Source of the DNA: an uncultured Lachnospiraceae bacterium
Lineage (GTDB): Bacteria > Bacillota > Clostridia > Lachnospirales > Lachnospiraceae
NCBI GenBank assembly: GCA_946614135.1
Contig: CAMOGH010000008.1
Location: 447 to 64,446 of the forward strand
DNA: 64,000 nt
Direction: 5' to 3'
The position numbers were made by a program, and so were the translations under genes. The notes beneath the pieces are model-generated. The model saw nothing but the letters and a program-made list of their open reading frames with translations. It was not told where the DNA came from and made no database searches. This document shows, one piece after another, positions 14,490 through 25,345 of the stretch; the stretch's first letter is position 1, and the number at the start of each line of letters is the position of its first letter.

Positions 14490-16034
14490 TTATTTTTCTT
14501 CCTCAAGACTTTCGCTCTTATGAACCACTACAGTTTCCTCATAACAAGAGAATATATCGTCTATCAGAGCCTTGTCAGGTTTTGGTGTTACAAGACTTAC
14601 CACTGGAACAAGGATAAGACCTACCAACATTGTAAATGCTCCTGCATTGATTGGAGATTTTATCATTGGATGTAACATATTAACAACAGTAAATCCTACA
14701 CCAAAAATATAACTTGCCCAAACTGAAGCCTTTGTGATCTTCTTTGAGTAAAGACCAAACATAAACGGTGCAAGGAACGCTCCGGCAAGGGCTCCCCATG
14801 AAATACCCATTAACTGTGCAATAAACATTGGCGGATTAAATGCAAGTATTACTGAAAGAGCAATAAATGCAACAACTAAAATTCTCATAAGACTGAGCTG
14901 TGTCTTCTCTTTCATATTCTTTGCTATCACCGGTTTAATAAGGTCAAGCGCAAGTGTTGAACTTGATGTAAGTACCAGTGATGAAAGAGTTGACATTGAA
15001 GCTGAGAATACAAGTACAACTACTATACCGATAAGTAAATCAGGAAGTGTTGAAAGCATTGCAGGAACAATAGAGTCAAATGCTACTGATCCATCCGGCT
15101 TATAAATATCAGCTCCACTAAAAAGTCTTGCAAAACCTCCAAGGAAATAACATCCTCCTGAGATTACAATAGCAAAAAATGTTGAAACAATAGTTCCTGT
15201 TCTAACCGCCTTCTCATCCTTAATGGTATAGAATTTATGTACCATCTGTGGAAGTCCCCAGGTTCCAAGCGAAGTAAGTATTACAACACCTAAAAGATTA
15301 AGTGGATCTGGTCCAAAGAAGCTGGCAAAAAGTCCCTTAGAACCAAGAAGAGGTGCTGCAGTAACCGCTGCATCCACTTCTACTTCTGAAAGTTTCTTAA
15401 CTGCAGCAAGGAATCCCCCCTGTCCATTAAGTACTGCTATTATTACAGCAGCAATACCAATAAGCATTATTATACCCTGAATGAAATCGTTTAATGCAGT
15501 TGCCATATAACCACCTACAACTACATAAACACCTGTAAGGAGTGCCATAATAACGATACATACATGATAGTCTATTGAAAAAGCCATTCCAAAAAGTCTT
15601 GAAAGTCCATTATAAACTGATGCTGTATACGGAACCAGGAAAACAAAAGCAATAACAGAACCAACAACCCTGAGGGCTTTTGAATCAAATCTCTTTCCAA
15701 AATATTCAGGCATGGTTCTAGCTTCAAGTTTCTGAGTCATAACTCTTGTTCTTCTTCCAAGAACAAGCCATGCAAGAAGACTTCCTATCATCGCATTTCC
15801 AAGTCCGATCCAGGTAGATGAAAGTCCATACTTCCATCCGAACTGACCCGCATATCCTATAAATACAACTGATGAAAAATAAGATGTTCCAAAGGCAAAG
15901 GCCGTGATCCATGGACCTACAGTTCTTCCACCAAGTACATAATCATTAACATTTTTGGCTCTTTGTCTCGAATAGAAACCTACACCAATCATCACAGAAA
16001 AAAACACAACCAGAAGTATAATTTTTACTGCCAT
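14490..16034 (-). CDS. Sodium:solute symporter family transporter
   Basis: 514 aa with about 13 TM segments. The N-terminal region is typical of SSF/PutP/PanF-like carriers. Confidence 0.8.
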   Translation of the reverse strand: MAVKIILLVVFFSVMIGVGFYSRQRAKNVNDYVLGGRTVGPWITAFAFGTSYFSSVVFIGYAGQFGWKYGLSSTWIGLGNAMIGSLLAWLVLGRRTRVMTQKLEARTMPEYFGKRFDSKALRVVGSVIAFVFLVPYTASVYNGLSRLFGMAFSIDYHVCIVIMALLTGVYVVVGGYMATALNDFIQGIIMLIGIAAVIIAVLNGQGGFLAAVKKLSEVEVDAAVTAAPLLGSKGLFASFFGPDPLNLLGVVILTSLGTWGLPQMVHKFYTIKDEKAVRTGTIVSTFFAIVISGGCYFLGGFARLFSGADIYKPDGSVAFDSIVPAMLSTLPDLLIGIVVVLVFSASMSTLSSLVLTSSSTLALDLIKPVIAKNMKEKTQLSLMRILVVAFIALSVILAFNPPMFIAQLMGISWGALAGAFLAPFMFGLYSKKITKASVWASYIFGVGFTVVNMLHPMIKSPINAGAFTMLVGLILVPVVSLVTPKPDKALIDDIFSCYEETVVVHKSESLEEEK

Positions 16035-16143
16035 TTTTCCTCTCCCTTTTCATACTTTAAAATATTGTTATGCCAGTGCCTTATTGCGCTGATGCATTAA
16101 CGCACTAAAGTGATTATGGCAGAATCATCCTTTTGTGTCAAGA

Positions 16144-16178
16144 ATGGCTTCTTCTTGAAATTATCAAGAAGAAGCCAT
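16144..16178 (-). terminator. Strong hairpin ending the RiPP operon
   Basis: Perfect 15-bp stem atggcttcttcttga / tcaagaagaagccat, 27 nt after the peptide stop. The T-tract is weak (TTCTTG). Confidence 0.6.
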
Positions 16179-16204
16179 AGGCATAATTCAATAAAATCAG
16201 ATAA

Positions 16205-16369
16205 TTAATTGCTAATTTTACCAGTAACTGATGCACCTACTGTTCCACTTAAAGATGCTGCAGCTGCAACAACAGTTCCTAACGTTGCTGTAACAGCACA
16301 TGCCACTGTACAACCTGATGCAACTGATCCAGCACAAATAAGTCCACATGCAAACCCACATGATGCCAT
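16205..16369 (-). CDS. RiPP precursor candidate: a 54-aa Cys-ladder hydrophobic peptide (an alternative TTG start at 16426 would add a 19-aa leader)
   Basis: GAGGAGG lies 8 nt before the ATG. The peptide is MASCGFACGLICAGSVASGCTVACAVTATLGTVVAAAASLSGTVGASVTGKISN, and 45 of its 54 residues are A/G/S/T/V/C. It is the last gene of an operon with two rSAM/SPASM enzymes. Confidence 0.75.
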   Translation of the reverse strand: MASCGFACGLICAGSVASGCTVACAVTATLGTVVAAAASLSGTVGASVTGKISN

Positions 16370-16430
16370 ACCTTTCACCTCCTCATATATAATATTGTAT
16401 AATTCTTGTTTTTTAATGAAAAACAAGCTA

Positions 16431-17117
16431 TTACACCTTATCTAATAACAAAGCATTAGGTATTTTTTTAATAAAAAAATACGAAGAAATTATTAATATA
16501 AAACCTACAATTGCAACTATTCCAATTACACCAACAGATATTTTCTGAAAAGTATCCATCAACATCATTATCGATATTATTAATAACACTGGTAATATTA
16601 AAGAAATCATCATTACTATTATTTCTCTTTTTATTATCCATATGATAAGCATATTTATTGCAATAAAGGAAAGTCCAATTAGTATGCCTGTAATAATAAA
16701 CTCTATATCAGTTACAAAATTAACCGCTATATATCCTTTTTGGAAATACATATACATCATAGCAACGCACCCTACTATAGATAATATAAAACCTACAATA
16801 AAGCTATATACCACTTTTGCTAACCAGATAAGCTCTTTTCTTTTTGTCATACCTAATAATATAGGCATAACTTTCGCCTTCATATCTACTCCCATATTAA
16901 TATTAGAAATAAGACTCCCCATTACCGCCATGTTTAATGCAGTAAAAATAAATAACTGTCCTCTTAATATTTTTTCATTAAAAATTACAGCATTATTAAT
17001 ATTGCTTATGAAAAAATACAACTCCAACCCAAAATATAATAAACATAATGGAAAACAGGATTTAAAAAATACTTTATTTTCCTTCCAAATTATTGTTTTT
17101 AAAATCTTATTCTTCAT
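16431..17117 (-). CDS. ABC-2 type transporter permease (export or immunity)
   Basis: 228 aa with about 6 TM helices. Overlaps the ATPase gene by 11 nt. Confidence 0.75.
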   Translation of the reverse strand: MKNKILKTIIWKENKVFFKSCFPLCLLYFGLELYFFISNINNAVIFNEKILRGQLFIFTALNMAVMGSLISNINMGVDMKAKVMPILLGMTKRKELIWLAKVVYSFIVGFILSIVGCVAMMYMYFQKGYIAVNFVTDIEFIITGILIGLSFIAINMLIIWIIKREIIVMMISLILPVLLIISIMMLMDTFQKISVGVIGIVAIVGFILIISSYFFIKKIPNALLLDKV

Positions 17118-17985
17118 ATACTTTCAAATATATTTCCTTTAAATTCAAATATTTTTTTGATATTTCTCTGATACTAATCTGATTATTTTGAATTTCATCA
17201 ATTAATACATCAGCATCACTCTCGTTCAAATGAATTTCAAACTTATCTTCACTTTTTTTATAATCTATATTTTTATTATCTAATAATACTTTTATATCTC
17301 TCGGATTGCGCCCTACTATTTCTAAGTGTTTAAACTTCATTCTTTCAATATTTGATAAATCACGTTCAAAAAGAATTTTTCCCTTCTTCATTATCCCCAC
17401 TGAATCACATAAATCGATTATTTCATCTACATTATGTGATACAAAAATAGCACTATTATCCCCTTCTTTTACCCATTCCCGAATACATTTAGATATTATT
17501 GTTCTTGAATTAATATCAAGTCCATCATATGGTTCATCCAGTAATAGCAAGTTAGGTTTTATCATTAACGCTCTTGCTAAAACCACTCTTCTTTTAAGTC
17601 CCTTTGACAATTTACTTATTATTATTTTTTTATATTCTTCCAGATTAACCATCCTCAAGTATTTTTTTACATATTCTTTATTATATACGCCATGAAGTCT
17701 TGCAAAAAATTCCAGATTAAACCAAACTGAATATTGATCATATAAACCATTATCATCTAAAACAAGTCCAATAACGCTGTCTTTATTAGAAAAAGAAATG
17801 GTTCCACCGTTATACTCAATAAGATCCGCTATTATTTTTAATAACGTAGTTTTTCCAGATCCATTTTCTCCTAATAAACCATATATATGATTTTTTTTTA
17901 TAGCCATGGTTAAATTATTTATAACCACTTTTTCTTCGTATTTTTTTATAATATTGCTTAATTCGACTAAATTACTGTTTTCCAC
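17107..17985 (-). CDS. ABC transporter ATP-binding protein
   Basis: 292 aa. Walker A GENGSGKTT, signature LSKGLKRR, Walker B LLLLDEP. Confidence 0.9.
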   Translation of the reverse strand: MENSNLVELSNIIKKYEEKVVINNLTMAIKKNHIYGLLGENGSGKTTLLKIIADLIEYNGGTISFSNKDSVIGLVLDDNGLYDQYSVWFNLEFFARLHGVYNKEYVKKYLRMVNLEEYKKIIISKLSKGLKRRVVLARALMIKPNLLLLDEPYDGLDINSRTIISKCIREWVKEGDNSAIFVSHNVDEIIDLCDSVGIMKKGKILFERDLSNIERMKFKHLEIVGRNPRDIKVLLDNKNIDYKKSEDKFEIHLNESDADVLIDEIQNNQISIREISKKYLNLKEIYLKVYEE

Positions 17986-19153
17986 AAATATACTTCCCCT
18001 CCATATTTTTTTCTTTTAAATCTCTATGTAGCATCATACAATCATTGCACGCCCACTTTAATGAACATTTTTCACATGATGATATTTTTTTCCTAAGTGT
18101 CCAATATTTCGAAATTTTGCCATTACAAAATGCTTTATCAATTTTTTCATTCGATAGATTTAAAATCACTTCATCCCACGCCGGACAAACCTTAACATCT
18201 CCATTTAAGGAAATTGCCATATTCCCTCGTAAACATCTATTATTATTCTTTTGAATTAAAATTTCATCCATTGAATAATTTATTCTTACGTTAAAATCAT
18301 CCAACGTCAAGGGTGTATTTACATAATTTATCTTTTCAATTATAGTATACTTCCTTATATTATTTTCCTTCAATAATTCTATTGATGTTTTTATCAACTC
18401 CGTCTTTTCAATTAGAACCAATTTATACTTTATTTTTGTATTATCTACATTTAGTATAGATTCTTTAATTCTATTAATATTTTTTTTAACATCAGTTAAT
18501 GTAATATCCAAACAAACCTTATTACCTCTCATAAAATCAATTTTATTAATATCAATACATAAAGCATTTGATACCAATGTAATCTTTGTTTTTTTATTAT
18601 TATTTCTAATAGCTAAAATCGTTTTTTCTATATAACCCCAGTTTGTAAAAGGATTTCCTCCTAGTATGACTACCTCTTCAACAGGAATATTTAATATCCT
18701 ATTTAAACAATCCGTTAGAATACTCTGATCACACACATTTTCTTCATTTTCCCAAATCGCACACACCCTACAAGGTCTTGTCAAACTATCCCATCCACAT
18801 AATTTACAATTCACTCCGCATTCTCGCGATGCTTCAATATATAATTTTTTTAATCTAGGCGGATTTTCTATAATCCCCGGTATACTTTTTTCATTATTAA
18901 AGAATAACTTCGTATTGTATACCGATGTATCATACAAATATAATACCCCCTCATCAAGTAATTTATTTACAAGTTCTTTAAACTTCTCATCAACGTTATC
19001 CTCTATATATTCAACTCTATTATTCAGTAAACTATTGAAAATATTCGCATATTCATTTTCAATATGGTAATTCCTCCCACTTAAATTAAAAAAACACCCA
19101 TCATCCCCATAATATTCATATCTAGCAATTGGTAACAGTCGTAAAAAAGCCAT
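17972..19153 (-). CDS. Radical SAM / SPASM-domain peptide maturase B
   Basis: ATG (MAFLRLL) follows GAGGAG. CGVNCKLC is the rSAM motif after an N-terminal extension of about 115 aa. The C-terminus has C-x10-G-x4-C and CEKCSLKWACNDC (C-x2-C-x5-C-x2-C). Confidence 0.85.
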   Translation of the reverse strand: MAFLRLLPIARYEYYGDDGCFFNLSGRNYHIENEYANIFNSLLNNRVEYIEDNVDEKFKELVNKLLDEGVLYLYDTSVYNTKLFFNNEKSIPGIIENPPRLKKLYIEASRECGVNCKLCGWDSLTRPCRVCAIWENEENVCDQSILTDCLNRILNIPVEEVVILGGNPFTNWGYIEKTILAIRNNNKKTKITLVSNALCIDINKIDFMRGNKVCLDITLTDVKKNINRIKESILNVDNTKIKYKLVLIEKTELIKTSIELLKENNIRKYTIIEKINYVNTPLTLDDFNVRINYSMDEILIQKNNNRCLRGNMAISLNGDVKVCPAWDEVILNLSNEKIDKAFCNGKISKYWTLRKKISSCEKCSLKWACNDCMMLHRDLKEKNMEGKYICGKQ

Positions 19154-19314
19154 TTTTCTCCTCACATTTTCCTATCTATTTAAAGCCCATTCTATTTTAT
19201 TTTCAAATATATCAAATGCATTGGGATTAATTTCCAAGATGGAATAAATAACAACCAATAGCATTCTAAAATTTTCAATTAGATTATTACAATTTTTTTC
19301 CTGAACTTGTTCAT

Positions 19315-20679
19315 CTAAGCATAATGTAGAATAACAAACAGGGCATGCCTTATACAGAGGACAATACCCACATTTTTCAGCACATTTTTTTTGTTATATT
19401 TTTTCATTACATTAACTATCGCTTTAAAATCAATACCATCATATACGTTTCCAATAGGCATACTATAATCAACTCTTTCACACATATCAAACGTTCCATC
19501 AACTCTAACGGACAGCTTTGTTCCTGGAACACAAGCCCCTGTATATGGTAAAATGGGTACCTTATAGTCTTTATACATCCTTCTCATAAAAAAAAGCGCA
19601 GAATTAAGATTCCAAAACATATCTGCATATTCATTTGAAAAACTATTATTTTTCATATCCCCTATAAATAATTTTAATATTTCACTATATTCCGCATTGA
19701 ATTTCTCAATATCTTCCTTTCTAAACTTTTTGTAATAATTCGTATTTTTATCTAATACGGCGTTAACAAATGATAATCTCGGTAAATCCTCATCTTTAAA
19801 AAATTCATTATTTTCTAATAAATTTGTTTTATAATCGAATACACTTATTATATTAATTCTATTATAATCGGGATATTTTTCCTTGAAAGATTTCAAATTA
19901 TTCATGATTATATCAAAAGAACCTTTATTATTCGGAAGAACTCTATTTCTATCATGATTATTTTTGTTTCCATCCAAACTAACCGAAATATAAAAATCAT
20001 TAGAAACTAAGTATTCCGCAATTTCATTCTGCAATAATAAACCATTTGATGTTATGCTAAAAATATACTCTGACGGACAATTTTCTTTAGTATATTCCAC
20101 ACATTTTTTAATTATTTCGAAATTTAATAGTGGTTCTCCTCCATAAAATGTAACAACACATTTTTTTCCTGGATTATACATTAATACCTTCTTAAATTCC
20201 TTAAAATAATAATCTAATGCATCTATTGCAGTTTTTTCACTCATTATCTTATCCGTTCTATTTCTTGTATTGTCATATGACTCAGAAAAAAAACAATATT
20301 TACATCTCAAATTACAATTTTCAGTTAAATTAAGAACTATCTGTCCAAAATACCCCAGCTTAAACAAACATATTTCAACTTCTTGCTCATCAAACCTATC
20401 AATAAATTGTTGTTCTCTCTTTACCTGTTCACTTGTCTTATAAAATCCTGTAAATAACCTCGAATATTTTTCTACAAAAGATAATCCCCTTTTTACCATT
20501 TTTTCGTTTTTATATTTTTTAAATAATATTTTTTCAACATCTTCAATTGTATTTCCCTCATATAAATCAATACTCTCTTTTATTATTTCATCACACGCGA
20601 TAACACATCCCGTATTAGAATCATATATATACTGATTTCCATTTACTGTTTTAAAGTCGATATAACATTTTTTCTTCAT
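19315..20679 (-). CDS. Radical SAM / SPASM-domain peptide maturase A, frame-broken at an A8 run; the intact frame would continue to 19193
   Basis: CNLRCKYC at residues 122-129 and GACVPGTKLSVRVDGTFDMC (C-x11-G-x4-C). The remaining SPASM cysteines (CAEKCGYCPLYKACPVC) are encoded in the -1 frame after plus-strand T8 at 19385-19392. Confidence 0.8.
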   Translation of the reverse strand: MKKKCYIDFKTVNGNQYIYDSNTGCVIACDEIIKESIDLYEGNTIEDVEKILFKKYKNEKMVKRGLSFVEKYSRLFTGFYKTSEQVKREQQFIDRFDEQEVEICLFKLGYFGQIVLNLTENCNLRCKYCFFSESYDNTRNRTDKIMSEKTAIDALDYYFKEFKKVLMYNPGKKCVVTFYGGEPLLNFEIIKKCVEYTKENCPSEYIFSITSNGLLLQNEIAEYLVSNDFYISVSLDGNKNNHDRNRVLPNNKGSFDIIMNNLKSFKEKYPDYNRINIISVFDYKTNLLENNEFFKDEDLPRLSFVNAVLDKNTNYYKKFRKEDIEKFNAEYSEILKLFIGDMKNNSFSNEYADMFWNLNSALFFMRRMYKDYKVPILPYTGACVPGTKLSVRVDGTFDMCERVDYSMPIGNVYDGIDFKAIVNVMKKYNKKNVLKNVGIVLCIRHALFVILHYA

Positions 20680-20807
20680 TCCTTACTCCACATCCCTTAT
20701 GACGTTATTTTTTCTGCAAATATGTGTGTTTTATATATTTATCTTCACATTCCAATCAATTGTATGACATTTTTTTCATTAGTTAATTTAAGCATAAAAG
20801 CAGAACT

Positions 20808-20835
20808 ATTGTAAAAAAAAAGAGAGTTGTGTCAA
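20808..20835 (-). promoter_or_regulatory. Sigma-A type promoter of the RiPP operon
   Basis: Minus strand reads TTGACA, 16 nt, TACAAT, about 120 nt upstream of the maturase A ATG. Confidence 0.55.
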
Positions 20836-20882
20836 GTAAAATTGCATATTTTTTAAATTATTTTTCATCAAATGTTAATAAT

Positions 20883-20930
20883 AAAAAATCTCCAGGATCC
20901 TAGGTACATACTAGACTCCCGGAGATTCTT
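20883..20930 (-). terminator. Rho-independent terminator after the large surface protein gene
   Basis: Hairpin aatctccggga...tcctggagatt followed by TTTTTT on the minus strand. Confidence 0.7.
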
Positions 20931-20944
20931 CACCTTATATTATA

Positions 20945-23900
20945 TTACCTATCCAATTCTATTGTAAATCGCTTTATTCCACCAGAGAATTTATAATCTC
21001 CTACCCAGAGGTATTTGCCATCATAATTTAAATAATGGGCATTAAAGAACGTATCACTGGACTGAATTGACTTTGCATCATAGGCCATATCAAAGAATTC
21101 ATTTGTTGGATCTGACAGCAATACATCATAACCATCATACATAGAGGAACCAAGTCCAAGAACAGCTATAGATTTTTTCTCCTGCTCCTGTATTTCAGAT
21201 ACTGCATCATCTATGGAATTCCATATTATAACTCTTCCAAATCCTCCATCACTAAGCACAACTTTTCCAGTTTTTGTAACTAATGCGTCTGCCACACCAT
21301 TAAATGATCTGTATACCTCCTCATATCTTCTTTCACCATTATCTAATCCCACTACCATCTTAACTTGGGCGCCTTCAATTACATTTGCGTTATTGTAGGC
21401 TGTATCATTTAAAATATCAGCTACATTTACTATTGTGGCTGTATCTGTACTAGAGGCCATAGCAATGTATGTATTTCCATCATCACACTTCGTTACATGA
21501 ATTGAAGGGCTGTCGTAACTAATCACTCTTTCAGATGGAGCCTTAAATGTAAGCTTTAATATTTTAACTGGCTCATCTCCATCTTTAGGTATACCCTGAT
21601 AAATATAAAGCTCATCGTGCTGAACAAGATATAAATACCCATCACAATAGTCAATTGATTTAATATAATTAAACTCTCTATTTCCTATTTTTTTATTAAG
21701 ATATATATCCGGATACTCTCCTTCAAATACATCCTCAATATTTTCCCAATAATAAAGTCTTCCTCTTTCAGCTATAACAAGGCCTGTTTTATTATTCTTA
21801 TTAATTAGTGCTGCATCTTCCACAGGTCTTGTAAAAGTTATTCTCATATCTGGTTTTGCATCATTTTCATTTGGAATCTTCTTCCAAAGACAAACCACTC
21901 CATTATAGTCATCTATTGCAAGCATTCTTTCCCCATCTGAAACAACGATACAGTTCTGATATTTGTACATTACATCTGCTGTCTTTACATAAGGATTTTC
22001 AGCACCAATACAGATATCAGGCACATCTATACAATGCTTTTCTATAACGCCTATATCCCTTCTATTCCAATAATAAGCCCCATTATAGACAAATGTATCT
22101 CCGTCAATTTCTTCTAGTTCAGATATATTAATATCTGCAGGTTCATCAGGGAACTGATTTGCAGCAAAGCCAACTACCTTTCCTGCATTTATGCCTACTG
22201 AAAATAGATTACCTTTTTCATCCTGAACAAGAGAACATATGTCTCCTCCCAGGAAATAATAATAGTCATCTGCATCTATCTGACTTCCGCCTATATAATA
22301 ATCCGGCCTGTCACTGGCGTTATCAATTTTTCCATCTTTCCAGACAGTTATTGCTCCTGCCTCATGAAGAAGAAGAGTTCCTTTAGGAATAACCTTACCG
22401 TCTTTTGTTGTCATATCATACTTTAAATAAAGTCCAGATGGCTGTCCTGAATTTCCGTCCCAATATGTAAAATCTCCCGGATTTTCAGCAAATTGGAAAA
22501 GAACTTTTGAGTCATCATTTTTGCTTCTAATTTCCTCATAGGATATATTTTCATAATCATTAAAGACTCTTAAAGCTGTCATATTAGCCCCGTCAGACTG
22601 AACTATATTATGATCTCCTATAAGAAGAATATTATCCTTACAGGTTATAGTACGTGGAGTACCTCCTGTCTTAATAACTTTATCTGGAAATTTATCCTCT
22701 CTTGTTGGAAATCCCTTATCCCATATAAGAACATATCCATTCTGAGTTGATGTACATATAAGTTTTCCTTCCTCTGTCCATAAATCCCAAGGCCAGGCAA
22801 TTCTTGATTCATTGGAATTTATAAATGCAGCTTCTTCTCCATAGTTGTAGTCTGTATGGTCAATCATCTGCATAATAGAGAAATCTGCAGGAGTACCATT
22901 TGCCCCTTCATCTGGAAGATCTTCCCATACAAGAATTCTGTCATTCTTTGCGTCTGCCACAAAGATTTTAACTTTTTCATCTTTAGTAACAGTAGCTGCA
23001 ACTCCCACAGGCCAGTTAAGACTTCCCAGGTCATATCCCGCCTTTGAAGACTCCGCATCTTTTTGTCCTAAGACACAATAAATATATTTTGAAACATCTG
23101 CCCCATTGAATAATCTGTCTTCTGGCACCTTAAATATTATTACTCTGTTAGACCATGTGTCTGACAGGAAATAATAATTAAATCCGTCCAAACAAACTGA
23201 ATCCATATCTCCCGGATGCTCATAATAAGTATCACTGCATTTTTCCATACCGGAAGAAAGAAGTGTAAGATCTAAAGCCATTCCATCTTTTAATTCACGA
23301 TACTCTGGATTTTCTGCAGCTATATATGAATTATTCTCTATAAAATCTGTTTTATAAAGACTTGAAAATGATTCAACATATACAGATACTGATTTATAGT
23401 AAATTCCATTTACAGAATTAAATCCCACTCTGATATCGCACCTTCCGCCTTCTCCTGGAACTGCGTATATTACGCCCTCTTTATCAACCTTTGCAATTGT
23501 TTCATCAGAAGAACTCCAGCTATATTCTACTTCTGTTCCCTTTACTAAAACATCCAGATCAAAATATTCCCCTGGTTCAAGGCGTACTCCCATTCGGGAG
23601 AATTCAAAATCAATAACATTTACAGTACATTTATACTGCTTTCCTTCATAAGTCGCTGTTATTTCACAACTTCCCGGTTGATTGCCAAATACTTCACCGT
23701 TTCCAACTCCAGCTATATTATTATTTGAAGAACTCCAGCTAACTTTATTTTTATCTGCTTCTTTTAAATCCAGCTGATATTTTTCTCCAGCTCCAAGAAA
23801 TATATTTTTCTGATTAAGTTCATATGTCTTATCCTCTTTAATTTCTTCTTTTAGGGCACCACTGGAATCAAATAAATATTTCTTTCCATCTATTGTTTGT

Positions 23901-24370
23901 CTTCCAGTTACCATGGCTCCAGAGGAATCCATATAATATTTTTTTCCTCCTGAATTAACCCAACCGGTTACCATAGCTCCAGAAGAATTCATATAGTACC
24001 ATTTTCCGCCCGATTTTACCCAGCCAGTTGCCATAGCACCACTGGAATTCATATAATACCATTTACCGCCTGATTTTACCCAGCCTGTAGCCATAGCTCC
24101 AGAAGGATTCAAATAATACCATTTTCCACTAACCTTGATCCAGCCGGTCTCCATATAACCCTTGGAATTAAAATGATACCATTTTCCACCAATACTAGCC
24201 CACTTACTTGCAGGATAAGATCCATCCTGATAACAATACCACCAACCGGTAGCATTATGTTTCCACCCCGCAGTGGCTGCATCAACTTGCCCATATCCAC
24301 TTTTAAAACGAACTGAAAAAATGAGAAAAAGCGCAAGAAAAAAAGCTAAAAACCTTTTTGTTTTTACCAT
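20945..24370 (-). CDS. Secreted cell-wall-binding protein: signal peptide, about 7 choline-binding-type repeats, two Big_2-like Ig domains, and a large C-terminal propeller-like region
   Basis: GGGAGGTG precedes the ATG (MVKTKRFLAFF...). There are 20-aa GWxKxxGKWYYxxxSGAMxT repeats. Two segments resemble Big_2 domains. Recurrent h-h-h-W-x-x-h-P motifs fill the C-terminal region of about 800 aa. Confidence 0.8.
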   Translation of the reverse strand: MVKTKRFLAFFLALFLIFSVRFKSGYGQVDAATAGWKHNATGWWYCYQDGSYPASKWASIGGKWYHFNSKGYMETGWIKVSGKWYYLNPSGAMATGWVKSGGKWYYMNSSGAMATGWVKSGGKWYYMNSSGAMVTGWVNSGGKKYYMDSSGAMVTGRQTIDGKKYLFDSSGALKEEIKEDKTYELNQKNIFLGAGEKYQLDLKEADKNKVSWSSSNNNIAGVGNGEVFGNQPGSCEITATYEGKQYKCTVNVIDFEFSRMGVRLEPGEYFDLDVLVKGTEVEYSWSSSDETIAKVDKEGVIYAVPGEGGRCDIRVGFNSVNGIYYKSVSVYVESFSSLYKTDFIENNSYIAAENPEYRELKDGMALDLTLLSSGMEKCSDTYYEHPGDMDSVCLDGFNYYFLSDTWSNRVIIFKVPEDRLFNGADVSKYIYCVLGQKDAESSKAGYDLGSLNWPVGVAATVTKDEKVKIFVADAKNDRILVWEDLPDEGANGTPADFSIMQMIDHTDYNYGEEAAFINSNESRIAWPWDLWTEEGKLICTSTQNGYVLIWDKGFPTREDKFPDKVIKTGGTPRTITCKDNILLIGDHNIVQSDGANMTALRVFNDYENISYEEIRSKNDDSKVLFQFAENPGDFTYWDGNSGQPSGLYLKYDMTTKDGKVIPKGTLLLHEAGAITVWKDGKIDNASDRPDYYIGGSQIDADDYYYFLGGDICSLVQDEKGNLFSVGINAGKVVGFAANQFPDEPADINISELEEIDGDTFVYNGAYYWNRRDIGVIEKHCIDVPDICIGAENPYVKTADVMYKYQNCIVVSDGERMLAIDDYNGVVCLWKKIPNENDAKPDMRITFTRPVEDAALINKNNKTGLVIAERGRLYYWENIEDVFEGEYPDIYLNKKIGNREFNYIKSIDYCDGYLYLVQHDELYIYQGIPKDGDEPVKILKLTFKAPSERVISYDSPSIHVTKCDDGNTYIAMASSTDTATIVNVADILNDTAYNNANVIEGAQVKMVVGLDNGERRYEEVYRSFNGVADALVTKTGKVVLSDGGFGRVIIWNSIDDAVSEIQEQEKKSIAVLGLGSSMYDGYDVLLSDPTNEFFDMAYDAKSIQSSDTFFNAHYLNYDGKYLWVGDYKFSGGIKRFTIELDR
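23849..24268 (-). repeat. Tandem 60-nt coding repeats (cell-wall-binding repeat array)
   Basis: About 7 successive 20-codon units. The central three are near-identical at the DNA level. Confidence 0.85.
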
Positions 24371-24535
24371 AAAACACCTCCCTGACATTATAATTTTAAC
24401 TACTTCTTTTCTACTTACCCCTAAATAGAATTTTTTCTTCCTGCAGATATTTCCCGCAAGAAGTCCTACATATATAAATTATAAAATACAGGATTTTATT
24501 ACTCAAATGAAGGAATTGTGAAATGGTTTTAAACA

Positions 24536-24691: not shown

Positions 24692-25345
24692 TTATATACT
24701 TACAATGTATTCTATGTCAAGAGAAAAATTATCTTTTTTTGAAGCAATTGCAATAATATATTCTTCTTTATAGCTGTTTTCATTCATAAGATATATATAT
24801 CCATTATTATCCTTTACTTTGCAGCTGTCTGTAGTCACTTCAAATGACTTTAACGGAATGCTTATCCCTGTACCATTCAGCTTAAGATATGCCTCTTTCA
24901 TAGTCCAGATCTTTCTAAATACTATCTGTTTCTCATCTTCAGGCGCATCCTCAACTGCACTTCTTTCTTTATCTGTAAACAGTCGTCTTGTAACAGCATA
25001 ATTTTTATCATCCTTTGTTTCTATGTCAACACCGCACTCACTATCATCTGTGACCACAACACAGTAATTACCTGAATGGGCTATATTAAAGAAACAGTTT
25101 TCAAATCCTTTAAGATATGGCTTTCCCATTTCATTATATCTGATCTTTATATCATCCTTACTGATACCAAAGGATTTTTTTAAAGCTCTCTGTACTAAAA
25201 GACCTGCACCGGCTGAAGTAAGGATTGCATCTTCCACCTTAAGTTTATCGAGCTTTTCTTTTCTCCAGTCACAGAGCATTTCCCTTACAGCCTTAATCTT
25301 TTCGCCAATATAAATCTTATCAACTTTATAAATATATACTTTCAT
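24692..25345 (-). CDS. 4'-phosphopantetheinyl transferase, Sfp type
   Basis: 217 aa. Motifs GKPYL, GVDIE and WTMKEAYLKL. Confidence 0.85.
   Translation of the reverse strand: MKVYIYKVDKIYIGEKIKAVREMLCDWRKEKLDKLKVEDAILTSAGAGLLVQRALKKSFGISKDDIKIRYNEMGKPYLKGFENCFFNIAHSGNYCVVVTDDSECGVDIETKDDKNYAVTRRLFTDKERSAVEDAPEDEKQIVFRKIWTMKEAYLKLNGTGISIPLKSFEVTTDSCKVKDNNGYIYLMNENSYKEEYIIAIASKKDNFSLDIEYIVSI

What the first reader, a model, noticed from the sequence alone, without database searches (positions are those of the whole stretch)
16205..16426. Ambiguous start of the precursor: leaderless 54-mer versus a 19-aa leader from a TTG start
There are two credible initiation sites in the same frame. The first is ATG at 16369, with GAGGAGG 8 nt upstream. 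It gives a peptide whose first Cys is residue 4, so there is effectively no leader. The second is TTG at 16426, with AAGGTG 7 nt upstream (overlapping the permease stop). It adds MFFIKKQELYNIIYEEVKG, a charged, Cys-free, helix-prone segment that looks like a RiPP leader. The strong SD for the ATG lies inside the Glu-Glu-Val codons of that putative leader. Leader-dependent recognition is the norm for rSAM maturases that contain a recognition element, and no leader protease is encoded here. The choice of start therefore decides between a leaderless substrate, which would be unusual, and leader-guided maturation with an unlinked protease.
Basis: partly seen in the sequence, partly recalled or inferred. 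Interest (0 to 1): 0.7.

Follow-up and report, generated by a model that had tools for sequence, protein, structure and literature searches.

The report
Leaderless cysteine-rich peptide beside radical-SAM enzymes
The small gene starts at the ATG, not the upstream TTG, so it encodes a 54-residue cysteine-rich peptide with no leader; related loci show the same, which is unusual for a peptide that sits beside radical-SAM modifying enzymes.

Summary
I compared eight independent lineages of the same gene, all from rumen Lachnospiraceae/Eubacterium metagenomes. Only the ATG and its strong Shine-Dalgarno site are shared. In six lineages the frame closes 0-11 codons upstream. These include the three whose radical-SAM (rSAM) maturase genes look intact. 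The 19 "leader" codons have no counterpart elsewhere. They lie in a 36-nt insert specific to this lineage, and its hairpin buries the TTG. The "AAGGTG" is the invariant Lys-Val end of the ABC permease. From the ATG onward the ORF is under purifying selection (dN/dS 0.11-0.22).

The leader model is therefore refuted, and the peptide family is leaderless throughout. It is tiny: five clusters among 1.84 billion representative proteins. It is always arranged as rSAM1 (nearest CteB, CcpM, RumMC and PapB), rSAM2, ABC ATPase, ABC permease, peptide.

I infer thioether cross-linking guided by the peptide's own conserved sequence; this is untested. One caveat applies to this strain. rSAM1 carries a real frameshift in an A8 run, and the maturase genes are broken in most related lineages.

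The parts
16205..16369 (-). Peptide gene: 54 codons plus TAA, starting at ATG 16369. Product MASCGFACGLICAGSVASGCTVACAVTATLGTVVAAAASLSGTVGASVTGKISN.
   Evidence: Gene callers called exactly this 54-aa product on six independent metagenome contigs. dN/dS is 0.11-0.22 against L001, L006, L020 and L021, with dS 0.7-1.3. Homologues start at the same ATG.
16375..16384 (-). Shine-Dalgarno site GAGGAGGTGA; the GGAGG core lies 8 nt before the ATG.
   Evidence: Duplex with the assumed anti-SD sequence is -15.8 kcal/mol, top 0.1% of ATGs on this strand. An equivalent SD site (-9.1 to -19.1 kcal/mol) lies before the ATG in all seven other lineages.
16424..16426 (-). In-frame TTG, rejected as a start codon.
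   Evidence: No counterpart in six of the seven other lineages, where the frame is closed by stops. It lies in the 5' arm of a 9-bp stem. Its SD-like site is weak.
16434..16439 (-). AAGGTG: the last two sense codons (Lys-Val) of the ABC permease, not a dedicated ribosome-binding site.
   Evidence: K227 and V228 are invariant in the four aligned permeases. The same codons read AAGGTA in L001 and L020.
16405..16427 (-). Hairpin CTTGTTTTT-CATTA-AAAAACAAG. It lies within a 36-nt spacer insert specific to this lineage. The predicted outer structure spans 16391-16442.
   Evidence: RNA fold -17.9 kcal/mol, z -2.4. It occurs once in the window. It is absent from the 24-29 nt spacers of L001, L020 and L021. 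Function unknown.
16144..16178 (-). 15-bp GC-containing hairpin that starts 26 nt after the peptide stop codon; probably the end of the operon.
   Evidence: Fold -30.6 kcal/mol, z -5.9, matched by 0 of 200 shuffles. The simple terminator scan missed it because the T-run is weak.
16431..17117 (-). ABC-2-type permease, 228 aa, no curated family.
   Evidence: Orthologues are 54-59% identical in L020 and L001, and 21-33% identical in L021, L022 and L027.
17107..17985 (-). ABC ATPase, DrrA/lantibiotic-protection type.
   Evidence: PF00005 E 1.9e-25; TIGR01188 E 1.3e-44; TIGR03740 E 1.5e-39.
17972..19153 (-). rSAM2: a divergent radical SAM/SPASM enzyme of 393 aa, with a CX3CX2C motif (CGVNCKLC).
   Evidence: Weak hits to Radical_SAM and to TIGR04193. 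The L021 orthologue scores E 1.5e-14 to SPASM_w_grasp. The AlphaFold model is poor (pLDDT 53), but its core matches anSME and TigE.
19172..20679 (-). rSAM1: radical SAM/SPASM thioether-type maturase, interrupted by a 1-nt frameshift.
   Evidence: TIGR04068 (CcpM) 230 bits, RumMC 168, PapB 140, all below their cut-offs. CteB (5WGG) E 1.5e-22, aligned over residues 12-433. Adding one A restores a 502-aa protein collinear with the 503-aa L021 enzyme.
19385..19392 (-). A8 homopolymer that carries the rSAM1 frameshift.
   Evidence: The same A8 run is present in four other metagenome contigs that are 100% identical here.

Best explanation
Translation starts at ATG 16369 and gives a 54-residue, uncharged, cysteine-rich peptide with no leader. 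Cysteines lie at positions 4, 8, 12, 20 and 24, a period of four.

The peptide belongs to a very small family from rumen Lachnospiraceae/Eubacterium. Members are 45-64 aa and share the invariant motif C-A-[VIL]-T-A-T-L-G. Every member begins with Met, with the first Cys 2-5 residues later. The gene is always the last in the operon rSAM1, rSAM2, ABC ATPase, ABC permease, peptide.

The following steps are inferred, not shown.
- rSAM1 is a SPASM enzyme nearest to the thioether-forming maturases CteB, CcpM, RumMC and PapB. It cross-links the cysteines to acceptor residues in the same peptide. The expected product is a hairpin like that of thuricin CD or thurincin H.
- rSAM2 adds a second modification or acts as a partner.
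- The ABC-2 pump exports the product or protects the producer.
- With no leader, the enzymes must recognise the peptide's own conserved sequence, either the central CA[VIL]TATLG motif or the C-terminal half.

In this particular strain rSAM1 is frameshifted in an A8 run. Full maturation is therefore probably lost, or it depends on slippage at that run.

Sub-confidences: ATG start and leaderless family about 0.93; peptide is an rSAM substrate about 0.65; the modification is a thioether about 0.5.
For: Start site.
- Eight lineages share only the ATG and a strong SD site 5-7 nt from it.
- In-frame stops close the upstream frame after 5 codons (L001-5), 9 (L006), 2 (L020), 6 (L021), 11 (L022-26) and 0 (L027-29).
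- L021, L023 and L027 carry apparently intact maturase genes.
- The spacer is only 24-29 nt in L001, L020 and L021.
- dN/dS is 0.11-0.22 from the ATG onward.
- Gene callers chose the 54-aa form on six contigs.
- The TTG lies in a hairpin stem, and AAGGTG is the invariant Lys-Val of the permease.

Link to the rSAM enzymes.
- Gene order is conserved across loci that share only 21-50% identity in the enzyme and transporter proteins.
- No other conserved small ORF is present.
- rSAM1 is homologous to CteB, aligned over residues 12-433. Its best family matches are thioether maturases.
- After frameshift correction the SPASM cysteine motif is restored.

Recognition without a leader.
- The peptide is the most conserved gene in the cluster. 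It is 70% identical to the L021 peptide, against 50% for rSAM1, 36% for rSAM2, 37% for the ATPase and 33% for the permease.
- PapB, a related enzyme, modifies leaderless substrates in vitro (PMC12715619).
Against: - There is no chemical evidence for any modification.
- The peptide matches no curated precursor family and no solved structure.
- rSAM1 falls below every curated cut-off.
- rSAM1 is frameshifted here.
- The maturases are disrupted or deleted in five lineages, while the peptide and the pump stay intact in most of them. The peptide might therefore work without them.
- rSAM1's N-terminal region aligns with that of CteB, which from the literature is its leader-binding RRE. That would normally imply a leader.
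- The anti-SD sequence used is the generic Firmicutes one, not read from this genome.
Confidence: 0.6

Rival explanations
1. Leader model: translation starts at TTG 16426, coupled to the end of the permease gene. This gives a 73-aa precursor whose first 19 residues (MFFIKKQELYNIIYEEVKG) guide the RRE-containing maturases and are removed by an unlinked protease.
For: - The frame is open, and a TTG lies 7 nt after AAGGTG.
- rSAM1's N-terminal region aligns with that of CteB.
- One other lineage (L007-9) also has an in-frame 20-codon extension, whose ATG overlaps the permease stop.
- The weak TigB hit is slightly better with the extension included (E 0.0014 against 0.1).
Against: - Six of the seven other lineages have in-frame stops 0-11 codons upstream and no alternative start, apart from a TTG at -7 in L006. 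These include the lineages with intact maturases.
- The two extensions share only EEV, which is the SD site.
- The L007 and L022 spacers are homologous DNA read in different frames.
- The 19 codons lie in a lineage-specific 36-nt insert.
- The TTG is in a 9-bp stem.
- SD pairing is -6.4 kcal/mol, and 15% of TTG triplets do as well.
- AAGGTG is the invariant Lys-Val of the permease.
Confidence: 0.03
2. The peptide is not an rSAM substrate. It is an unmodified, leaderless, hydrophobic peptide that works with the ABC-2 pump, either as a bacteriocin-like or membrane-active peptide or as a small membrane subunit. The rSAM genes are dispensable neighbours.
For: - The peptide and pump are intact in L001-5 and in L010/L020, where both rSAM genes are deleted down to remnants.
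- In the window's own lineage rSAM1 is frameshifted, and some strains carry an IS element in rSAM2.
- The peptide is more conserved than any enzyme in the cluster.
- Known leaderless bacteriocins are unmodified (general knowledge).
Against: - Every locus with a complete upstream region carries either both rSAM genes or recognisable remnants of them, in the same order.
- Cysteines at every fourth position followed by a Thr/Ser/Ala/Gly/Val-rich tail is the pattern of hairpin sactipeptides (general knowledge).
- The peptide has neither the cationic, Trp-rich character nor any family match of the known leaderless bacteriocins.
- Deletion of the maturases may simply be recent decay.
Confidence: 0.2
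3. In this genome the locus is a decaying relic. With rSAM1 frameshifted and the accessory 163-166 aa membrane protein absent, no functional product is made. The peptide ORF survives only because it is a small mutational target, while the pump is kept as orphan immunity.
For: - The A8 frameshift is reproduced in four other contigs.
- Maturase inactivation recurs in L011/12, L020, L001-5, L013-17 and L022.
- L018 keeps the pump but has lost both the peptide and the rSAM genes.
- The 163-166 aa protein is absent from the window.
Against: - The peptide sequence and its 150 upstream bases are identical in five independent assemblies, and L035 is near-identical (99.4%) from about 109 nt upstream.
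- The very strong SD site and the terminator-like hairpin are retained.
- An A8 run may allow slippage to restore the frame in some transcripts (inference).
- dN/dS is low, but it averages over long history and cannot date the loss.
Confidence: 0.3

Closest known systems
Hairpin (type I) sactipeptides: thuricin CD (TrnA/TrnB with TrnC/TrnD), thurincin H, subtilosin A
   Same: - A small, uncharged peptide rich in Gly, Ala, Ser, Thr, Val and Cys.
- Cysteines spaced i, i+4, i+8 in the N-terminal half, followed by a possible acceptor-rich C-terminal half.
- Two rSAM/SPASM genes, as in thuricin CD.
- An ABC ATPase plus permease in the operon.

The peptide patterns of these known systems are recalled from general knowledge, not tested by alignment here. 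There was no PDB sequence hit.
   Different: - Those precursors carry 8-20 residue N-terminal leaders that are cleaved off. This family has none.
- The peptide here is longer (45-64 aa) and has 4-7 Cys.
- The chemistry is unknown.
CteB/SCIFF and PapB ranthipeptide maturases; CcpM (TIGR04068); RumMC (ruminococcin C)
   Same: rSAM1 is homologous over nearly its full length. CteB (5WGG) gives E 1.5e-22 over residues 12-433, which takes in CteB's N-terminal region. Family scores are CcpM 230-247 bits, RumMC 168-195 and PapB 140-147.
   Different: - All scores are well below the curated family cut-offs (500, 720 and 340), so this is a separate subfamily.
- The known substrates of those enzymes have N-terminal leaders and C-terminal cores.
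- Here a second, very divergent rSAM/SPASM gene is always paired with rSAM1.
PapB leader-independent activity (Pedigo, Eastman and Bandarian 2025, PMC12715619)
   Same: It shows that a thioether-forming rSAM/SPASM enzyme with an RRE can fully convert substrates that lack any leader. A natural leaderless substrate is therefore biochemically plausible.
   Different: That result is in vitro, with engineered substrates; PapB's natural substrate has a leader. Here the natural substrates themselves would be leaderless.
Leaderless (class IId) bacteriocins, such as aureocin A53, lacticin Q and enterocin L50
   Same: Translated without a leader, and encoded next to ABC transporter genes.
   Different: Those peptides are unmodified, cationic, Trp/Lys-rich helical bundles with no rSAM genes (general knowledge). 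This peptide is uncharged and Cys-rich, has no family hit, and is linked to two rSAM genes.
Bottromycin-type follower-peptide RiPPs
   Same: The core lies at the extreme N-terminus, after Met. Any recognition sequence would have to lie C-terminal to it.
   Different: The enzymology is unrelated (YcaO and rSAM methyltransferases), and a follower and its hydrolase have been demonstrated there. Here a follower role for the C-terminal half is only a hypothesis.

Membership tests
Thioether rSAM RiPPs (sactipeptides / ranthipeptides) | A radical SAM enzyme with a CX3CX2C motif and a C-terminal SPASM domain, encoded next to the precursor | tested here: met
   rSAM1 has CNLRCKYC, and after frameshift correction the SPASM motif CAEKCGYCPLYKACPVCY. 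It is homologous to CteB. rSAM2 has CGVNCKLC and a C-terminal Cys-rich motif.
Thioether rSAM RiPPs (sactipeptides / ranthipeptides) | A precursor with an N-terminal leader that is bound by the enzyme's RRE and later removed | tested here: not met
   No leader can be encoded in six of the seven other lineages, and the first Cys lies 2-5 residues after Met.
Thioether rSAM RiPPs (sactipeptides / ranthipeptides) | Cys sulfur linked to an alpha, beta or gamma carbon in the mature peptide | not testable with these tools
   Needs mass spectrometry or NMR of the product.
CcpM / Cys-rich peptide system (TIGR04068) | Maturase scores above the curated cut-off of 500 bits | tested here: not met
   230 bits for the window protein and 247 bits for the intact L021 orthologue.
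RumMC / ruminococcin C sactipeptide system (NF035951) | Maturase scores above the curated cut-off of 720 bits | tested here: not met
   168 and 195 bits.
TigB methyl-cyclopropylglycine RiPP precursor (NF047709) | Precursor scores above the curated cut-off of 70 bits | tested here: not met
   18.6 bits with the spurious 19 residues and 12.7 bits (E 0.1) without them. Only one of the four other family members scanned gives even a trace hit (P0001, 9.3 bits, E 1.1). The match is compositional.
RRE-dependent maturases | An N-terminal PqqD-like winged-helix domain in the enzyme | tested here: inconclusive
   - rSAM1 residues 12-114 align with residues 12-99 of CteB. That this part of CteB is its RRE comes from the literature, not from a test here.
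- There is no Pfam hit for either N-terminal domain.
- In the rSAM2 model, residues 11-70 form a strand-strand-strand-helix-helix unit at pLDDT 70-79, but the model as a whole is poor (pLDDT 53), and the fold search matched mainly the rSAM core of anSME over about 200 columns.
Leaderless class IId bacteriocins | An unmodified, cationic helical peptide that matches a known family | tested here: not met
   No Pfam or NCBIfam hit. The sequence has a single Lys, no Trp and five Cys.

The most novel reading that the evidence does not exclude
This is a naturally "core-first" rSAM RiPP family. The N-terminal Cys-rich segment is the core. The invariant CA[VIL]TATLG motif, together with the C-terminal Ala/Gly/Thr/Val-rich half, acts as a built-in or follower recognition sequence for the N-terminal domains of two rSAM/SPASM enzymes. 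No leader and no leader protease are then needed. This would be the first natural leaderless substrate class for thioether-forming rSAM maturases.
Probability: 0.25. Interest if true: 0.8.

Novelty: new variant of a known kind. Interest (0 to 1): 0.55.

Why it matters
RiPP biosynthesis is taught and mined on one rule: an N-terminal leader is bound by an RRE, the C-terminal core is modified, and the leader is then removed. Genome-mining tools and engineering strategies depend on this rule.

A natural family would break that rule if its peptide next to RRE-type rSAM/SPASM maturases has no leader in any lineage. It would show that recognition can reside in the product itself or in a C-terminal segment. 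It would explain why no protease is encoded. It would also supply enzymes that need no leader tags, which is useful for peptide macrocyclisation.

The family also shows a clear ecological pattern. Maturase genes are repeatedly lost in rumen populations while the peptide and pump are kept, consistent with loss of production and retention of immunity.

For annotation, the practical result is simple: the gene is 54 codons long and starts at ATG 16369.

Tried and rejected
1. TigB membership. The E 0.0014 hit falls to E 0.1 without the 19 spurious residues and is all but absent from the other family members scanned. Rejected as compositional.
2. A halocin C8-like domain gave E 0.13 for one member only. 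Rejected.
3. The peptide has no PDB sequence match, even at E 10. Similarity to thuricin CD or thurincin H is therefore only a pattern recalled from general knowledge.
4. No Rfam family matches in 15900-21000, so the spacer hairpin is not a known RNA element.
5. The promoter scan found two 9/12 matches just upstream of the ATG (TTTTCA-17-TACAAT and TTAAAA-16-TATTAT), but the count is no higher than in shuffles. I make no claim of an internal promoter.
6. The Pfam scan of both rSAM N-terminal domains for PqqD/RRE found nothing.
7. The AlphaFold model of rSAM2 from a 4-sequence alignment was poor (pLDDT 53). The fold search confirmed only the rSAM/SPASM class, through anSME and TigE.
8. I looked for another precursor candidate upstream of rSAM1 in the window and in L021 and found none.
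9. I looked for the 163-166 aa membrane protein of L001, L020 and L021 in the window. It is absent.
10. Literature searches for natural leaderless or follower-type sactipeptides, and for TIGR04068, found no description of this family.

Full report
**Observation**

- ATG at 16369, preceded by GAGGAGG at 16384-16378, 8 nt upstream.
- In-frame TTG at 16426, preceded by AAGGTG at 16439-16434, 7 nt upstream. This abuts the permease stop TAA at 16433-16431.
- The ATG product is MASCGFACGLICAGSVASGCTVACAVTATLGTVVAAAASLSGTVGASVTGKISN (54 aa).
- The TTG would add MFFIKKQELYNIIYEEVKG, in which Glu-Glu-Val is the Shine-Dalgarno (SD) site read as codons.

**Surroundings**

The gene closes a minus-strand operon.
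- rSAM1 (19172-20679) is a radical SAM/SPASM enzyme. Its best family hits are CcpM (TIGR04068) at 230 bits, RumMC at 168, PapB at 140 and the SCIFF maturase at 118, all below their cut-offs.
- rSAM2 (17972-19153) is very divergent and has a CX3CX2C motif.
- An ABC ATPase lies at 17107-17985 and an ABC-2-type permease at 16431-17117.
- A 15-bp hairpin starts 26 nt after the peptide stop codon (fold -30.6 kcal/mol, z -5.9).
- A TTGACA-17-CATAAT match follows, ahead of an unrelated sodium/solute symporter gene.
- None of the cluster genes or the flanking ORFs I scanned has a protease domain.

**The decisive test: orthologous loci**

Protein searches found very few relatives.
- The word-indexed search gave three clusters.
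- A profile search of 1.84 billion representative proteins gave five.
- All are 45-69 aa, and in every one the first Cys lies 2-5 residues after the conserved start Met. The 69-aa P0003 is the one exception as called, because its gene call includes a 20-codon upstream extension.

I recovered the DNA for seven further lineages. The sources are rumen metagenomes and metagenome-assembled genomes titled Eubacterium sp. or uncultured Lachnospiraceae.

The table gives the number of in-frame codons open upstream of the shared ATG.

| Lineage | Open codons upstream | Alternative start in that stretch |
|---|---|---|
| Window | 24 | TTG at -19 |
| L001-5 | 5 | none |
| L006 | 9 | TTG at -7 |
| L010/L020 | 2 | none |
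| L021 | 6 (TAA TAA TGA at -9 to -7) | none |
| L007-9 | 28 | ATG at -20 |
| L022-26 | 11 | none |
| L027-29 | 0 | none |

- L021 has both maturase genes complete. L023 and L027 are intact as far as their contigs reach. All three are leaderless.
- The permease-to-peptide spacer is only 24-29 nt in L001, L020 and L021.
- The window carries an extra 36 nt in the spacer, and that insert supplies most of the 19 codons.
- The only other long extension (L007: MIYLPVYIYLHIACREEVLD) resembles the window's only at EEV, which is the SD site.
- The homologous spacer of L022 is read in another frame.

**Independent support for the ATG**

- Pairing to the generic Firmicutes anti-SD sequence (assumed, not read from this genome) is -15.8 kcal/mol for the ATG, in the top 0.1% of ATGs on the strand. 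It is -6.4 kcal/mol for the TTG, and 15% of TTG triplets do as well. Every other lineage has -9.1 to -19.1 kcal/mol before its ATG.
- AAGGTG encodes the Lys-Val that ends the permease. Both residues are invariant in the four aligned permeases.
- The TTG lies in the 5' arm of a 9-bp stem, CTTGTTTTT/AAAAACAAG, within a larger predicted structure (-17.9 kcal/mol, z -2.4).
- From the ATG onward, dN/dS is 0.11-0.22 against L001, L006, L020 and L021, at dS 0.7-1.3.
- Gene callers chose the 54-aa form on six other contigs.
- An open extension of this kind arises in 5% of shuffles of the spacer and at 27% of random positions. Two of eight lineages having one is what chance predicts.

**What the peptide is**

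The family alignment has these invariant positions, in window numbering: C8, C12, G14, C20, C24, A25, T27, A28, T29, L30, G31 and A37.

The N-terminus varies in length, and the last 6-10 residues vary in sequence. There are no charged residues until the extreme C-terminus. Cysteines fall every fourth residue (4, 8, 12, 20, 24).

The peptide matches no curated family. The TigB hit disappears once the spurious 19 residues are removed, and there is no PDB sequence match.

Gene order is the same in every locus that is complete enough to judge. It holds even where enzyme and transporter identity to the window is only 21-50%. No other conserved small ORF is present. The peptide is therefore the likely substrate, by synteny.

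The peptide is also the most conserved gene in the cluster. Against L021 it is 70% identical, compared with rSAM1 50%, rSAM2 36%, the ATPase 37% and the permease 33%. That would fit a peptide that carries both the product and its own recognition information.

**Mechanism (inferred)**

rSAM1 aligns with CteB (5WGG) from residue 12 to 433, which takes in CteB's N-terminal region. From the literature, that region is CteB's RRE. The nearest families of rSAM1 all make Cys thioether cross-links.

I therefore propose cross-linking of the N-terminal cysteines to acceptor residues further along the same peptide. The product would be a hairpin like thuricin CD or thurincin H; that comparison is a pattern recalled from general knowledge, not tested here. 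rSAM2 would supply a second modification or act as a partner, and the ABC-2 pump would provide export or immunity.

With no leader, recognition must use the conserved central motif or the C-terminal half. There is a biochemical precedent: PapB fully modifies leaderless substrates in vitro (PMC12715619). A sactipeptide review describes leader-dependent recognition as the general logic and does not mention leaderless precursors (PMC8172795). My searches found no description of this family.

**Caveat: maturase decay**

In the window rSAM1 is out of frame after an A8 run (19385-19392). Adding one A restores 502 aa, collinear with the 503-aa L021 enzyme and including the SPASM cysteines. The same A8 run occurs in four other assemblies, so it is not a sequencing error confined to this window.

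Other lineages show independent damage.
- In L013-17 the match to the window breaks at 18395 inside rSAM2, next to an IS3-type transposase gene.
- In L011/12 rSAM1 is split and rSAM2 is truncated.
- In L010/L020 a deletion leaves only the first 122 codons of rSAM1 and the last 246 codons of rSAM2, 87 nt apart.
- In L001-5 only about 300 nt of remnants remain.
- In L022 rSAM2 is frameshifted, whereas it is intact in L023.
- L018 keeps the pump but lacks both the peptide and the rSAM genes.

The peptide and the pump usually survive. Two readings fit: the peptide has a use without modification, or producers are repeatedly degenerating while keeping immunity. I cannot separate these, because dN/dS averages over long history.

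**Verdict**

- The leader model is refuted.
- The gene is a 54-codon leaderless ORF (confidence about 0.93).
- It is probably the substrate of a new subfamily of thioether-type rSAM/SPASM maturases (about 0.65) and would be recognised without a leader.

I class this as a new variant of a known kind. The interest lies in natural leaderless recognition. It is limited by the lack of any chemistry and by the broken rSAM1 in this strain.

Noticed in passing
window 19385-19392 (minus strand), within rSAM1 19172-20679: A 1-nt frameshift in an A8 run cuts rSAM1 before its SPASM cysteines. Adding one A restores a 502-aa protein. The same A8 run is present in four other metagenome contigs, so the frameshift is real. 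An A8 run might allow slippage to rescue the frame.
   Followed up: yes
L001-5, L010/L020, L011/12, L013-17, L018, L022 (related loci): The two rSAM genes have been inactivated independently in at least five lineages, by frameshift, a break next to an IS3-type transposase (at window position 18395), truncation or large deletion. The ABC pump, and usually the peptide gene, stay intact. L018 keeps only the pump.
   Followed up: partly
window 16391-16442 (hairpin core 16405-16427): The permease-to-peptide spacer carries a lineage-specific insert of about 36 nt that forms an AT-rich hairpin (9-bp stem). It occurs once in the window and has no Rfam match. Its function is unknown; it could be an RNA processing or stability element, or an attenuator.
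   Followed up: partly
P0001 / P0002 (L001-L006), aligned to window peptide residues 19-24: The hexapeptide unit GCTV(A/V)(P/S) is present once in the window peptide, twice in P0001 and three times in P0002. Each extra copy adds one cysteine, so the unit expands in frame like a repeat.
   Followed up: no
L001 3879-4370, L020 8959-9450, L021 1803-2303: A conserved 163-166 aa two-helix membrane protein with no family assignment accompanies the cluster. It lies downstream of the peptide in L001 and L020 and upstream of rSAM1 in L021. It is absent from the window. It could be an immunity or accessory protein.
   Followed up: partly
L035 1-181: In one rumen contig the peptide gene and its spacer match the window (99.4% identity), but the sequence upstream of the last ~48 nt of the permease gene is unrelated. 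This is either a rearrangement or an assembly chimera.
   Followed up: no
window 20945-24388 and 24692-25345 (minus strand): Immediately upstream of the cluster lie a 1147-aa secreted protein with choline-binding cell-wall repeats and a Big_2 domain, and an Sfp-type 4'-phosphopantetheinyl transferase. Neither has an evident link to the peptide cluster.
   Followed up: no
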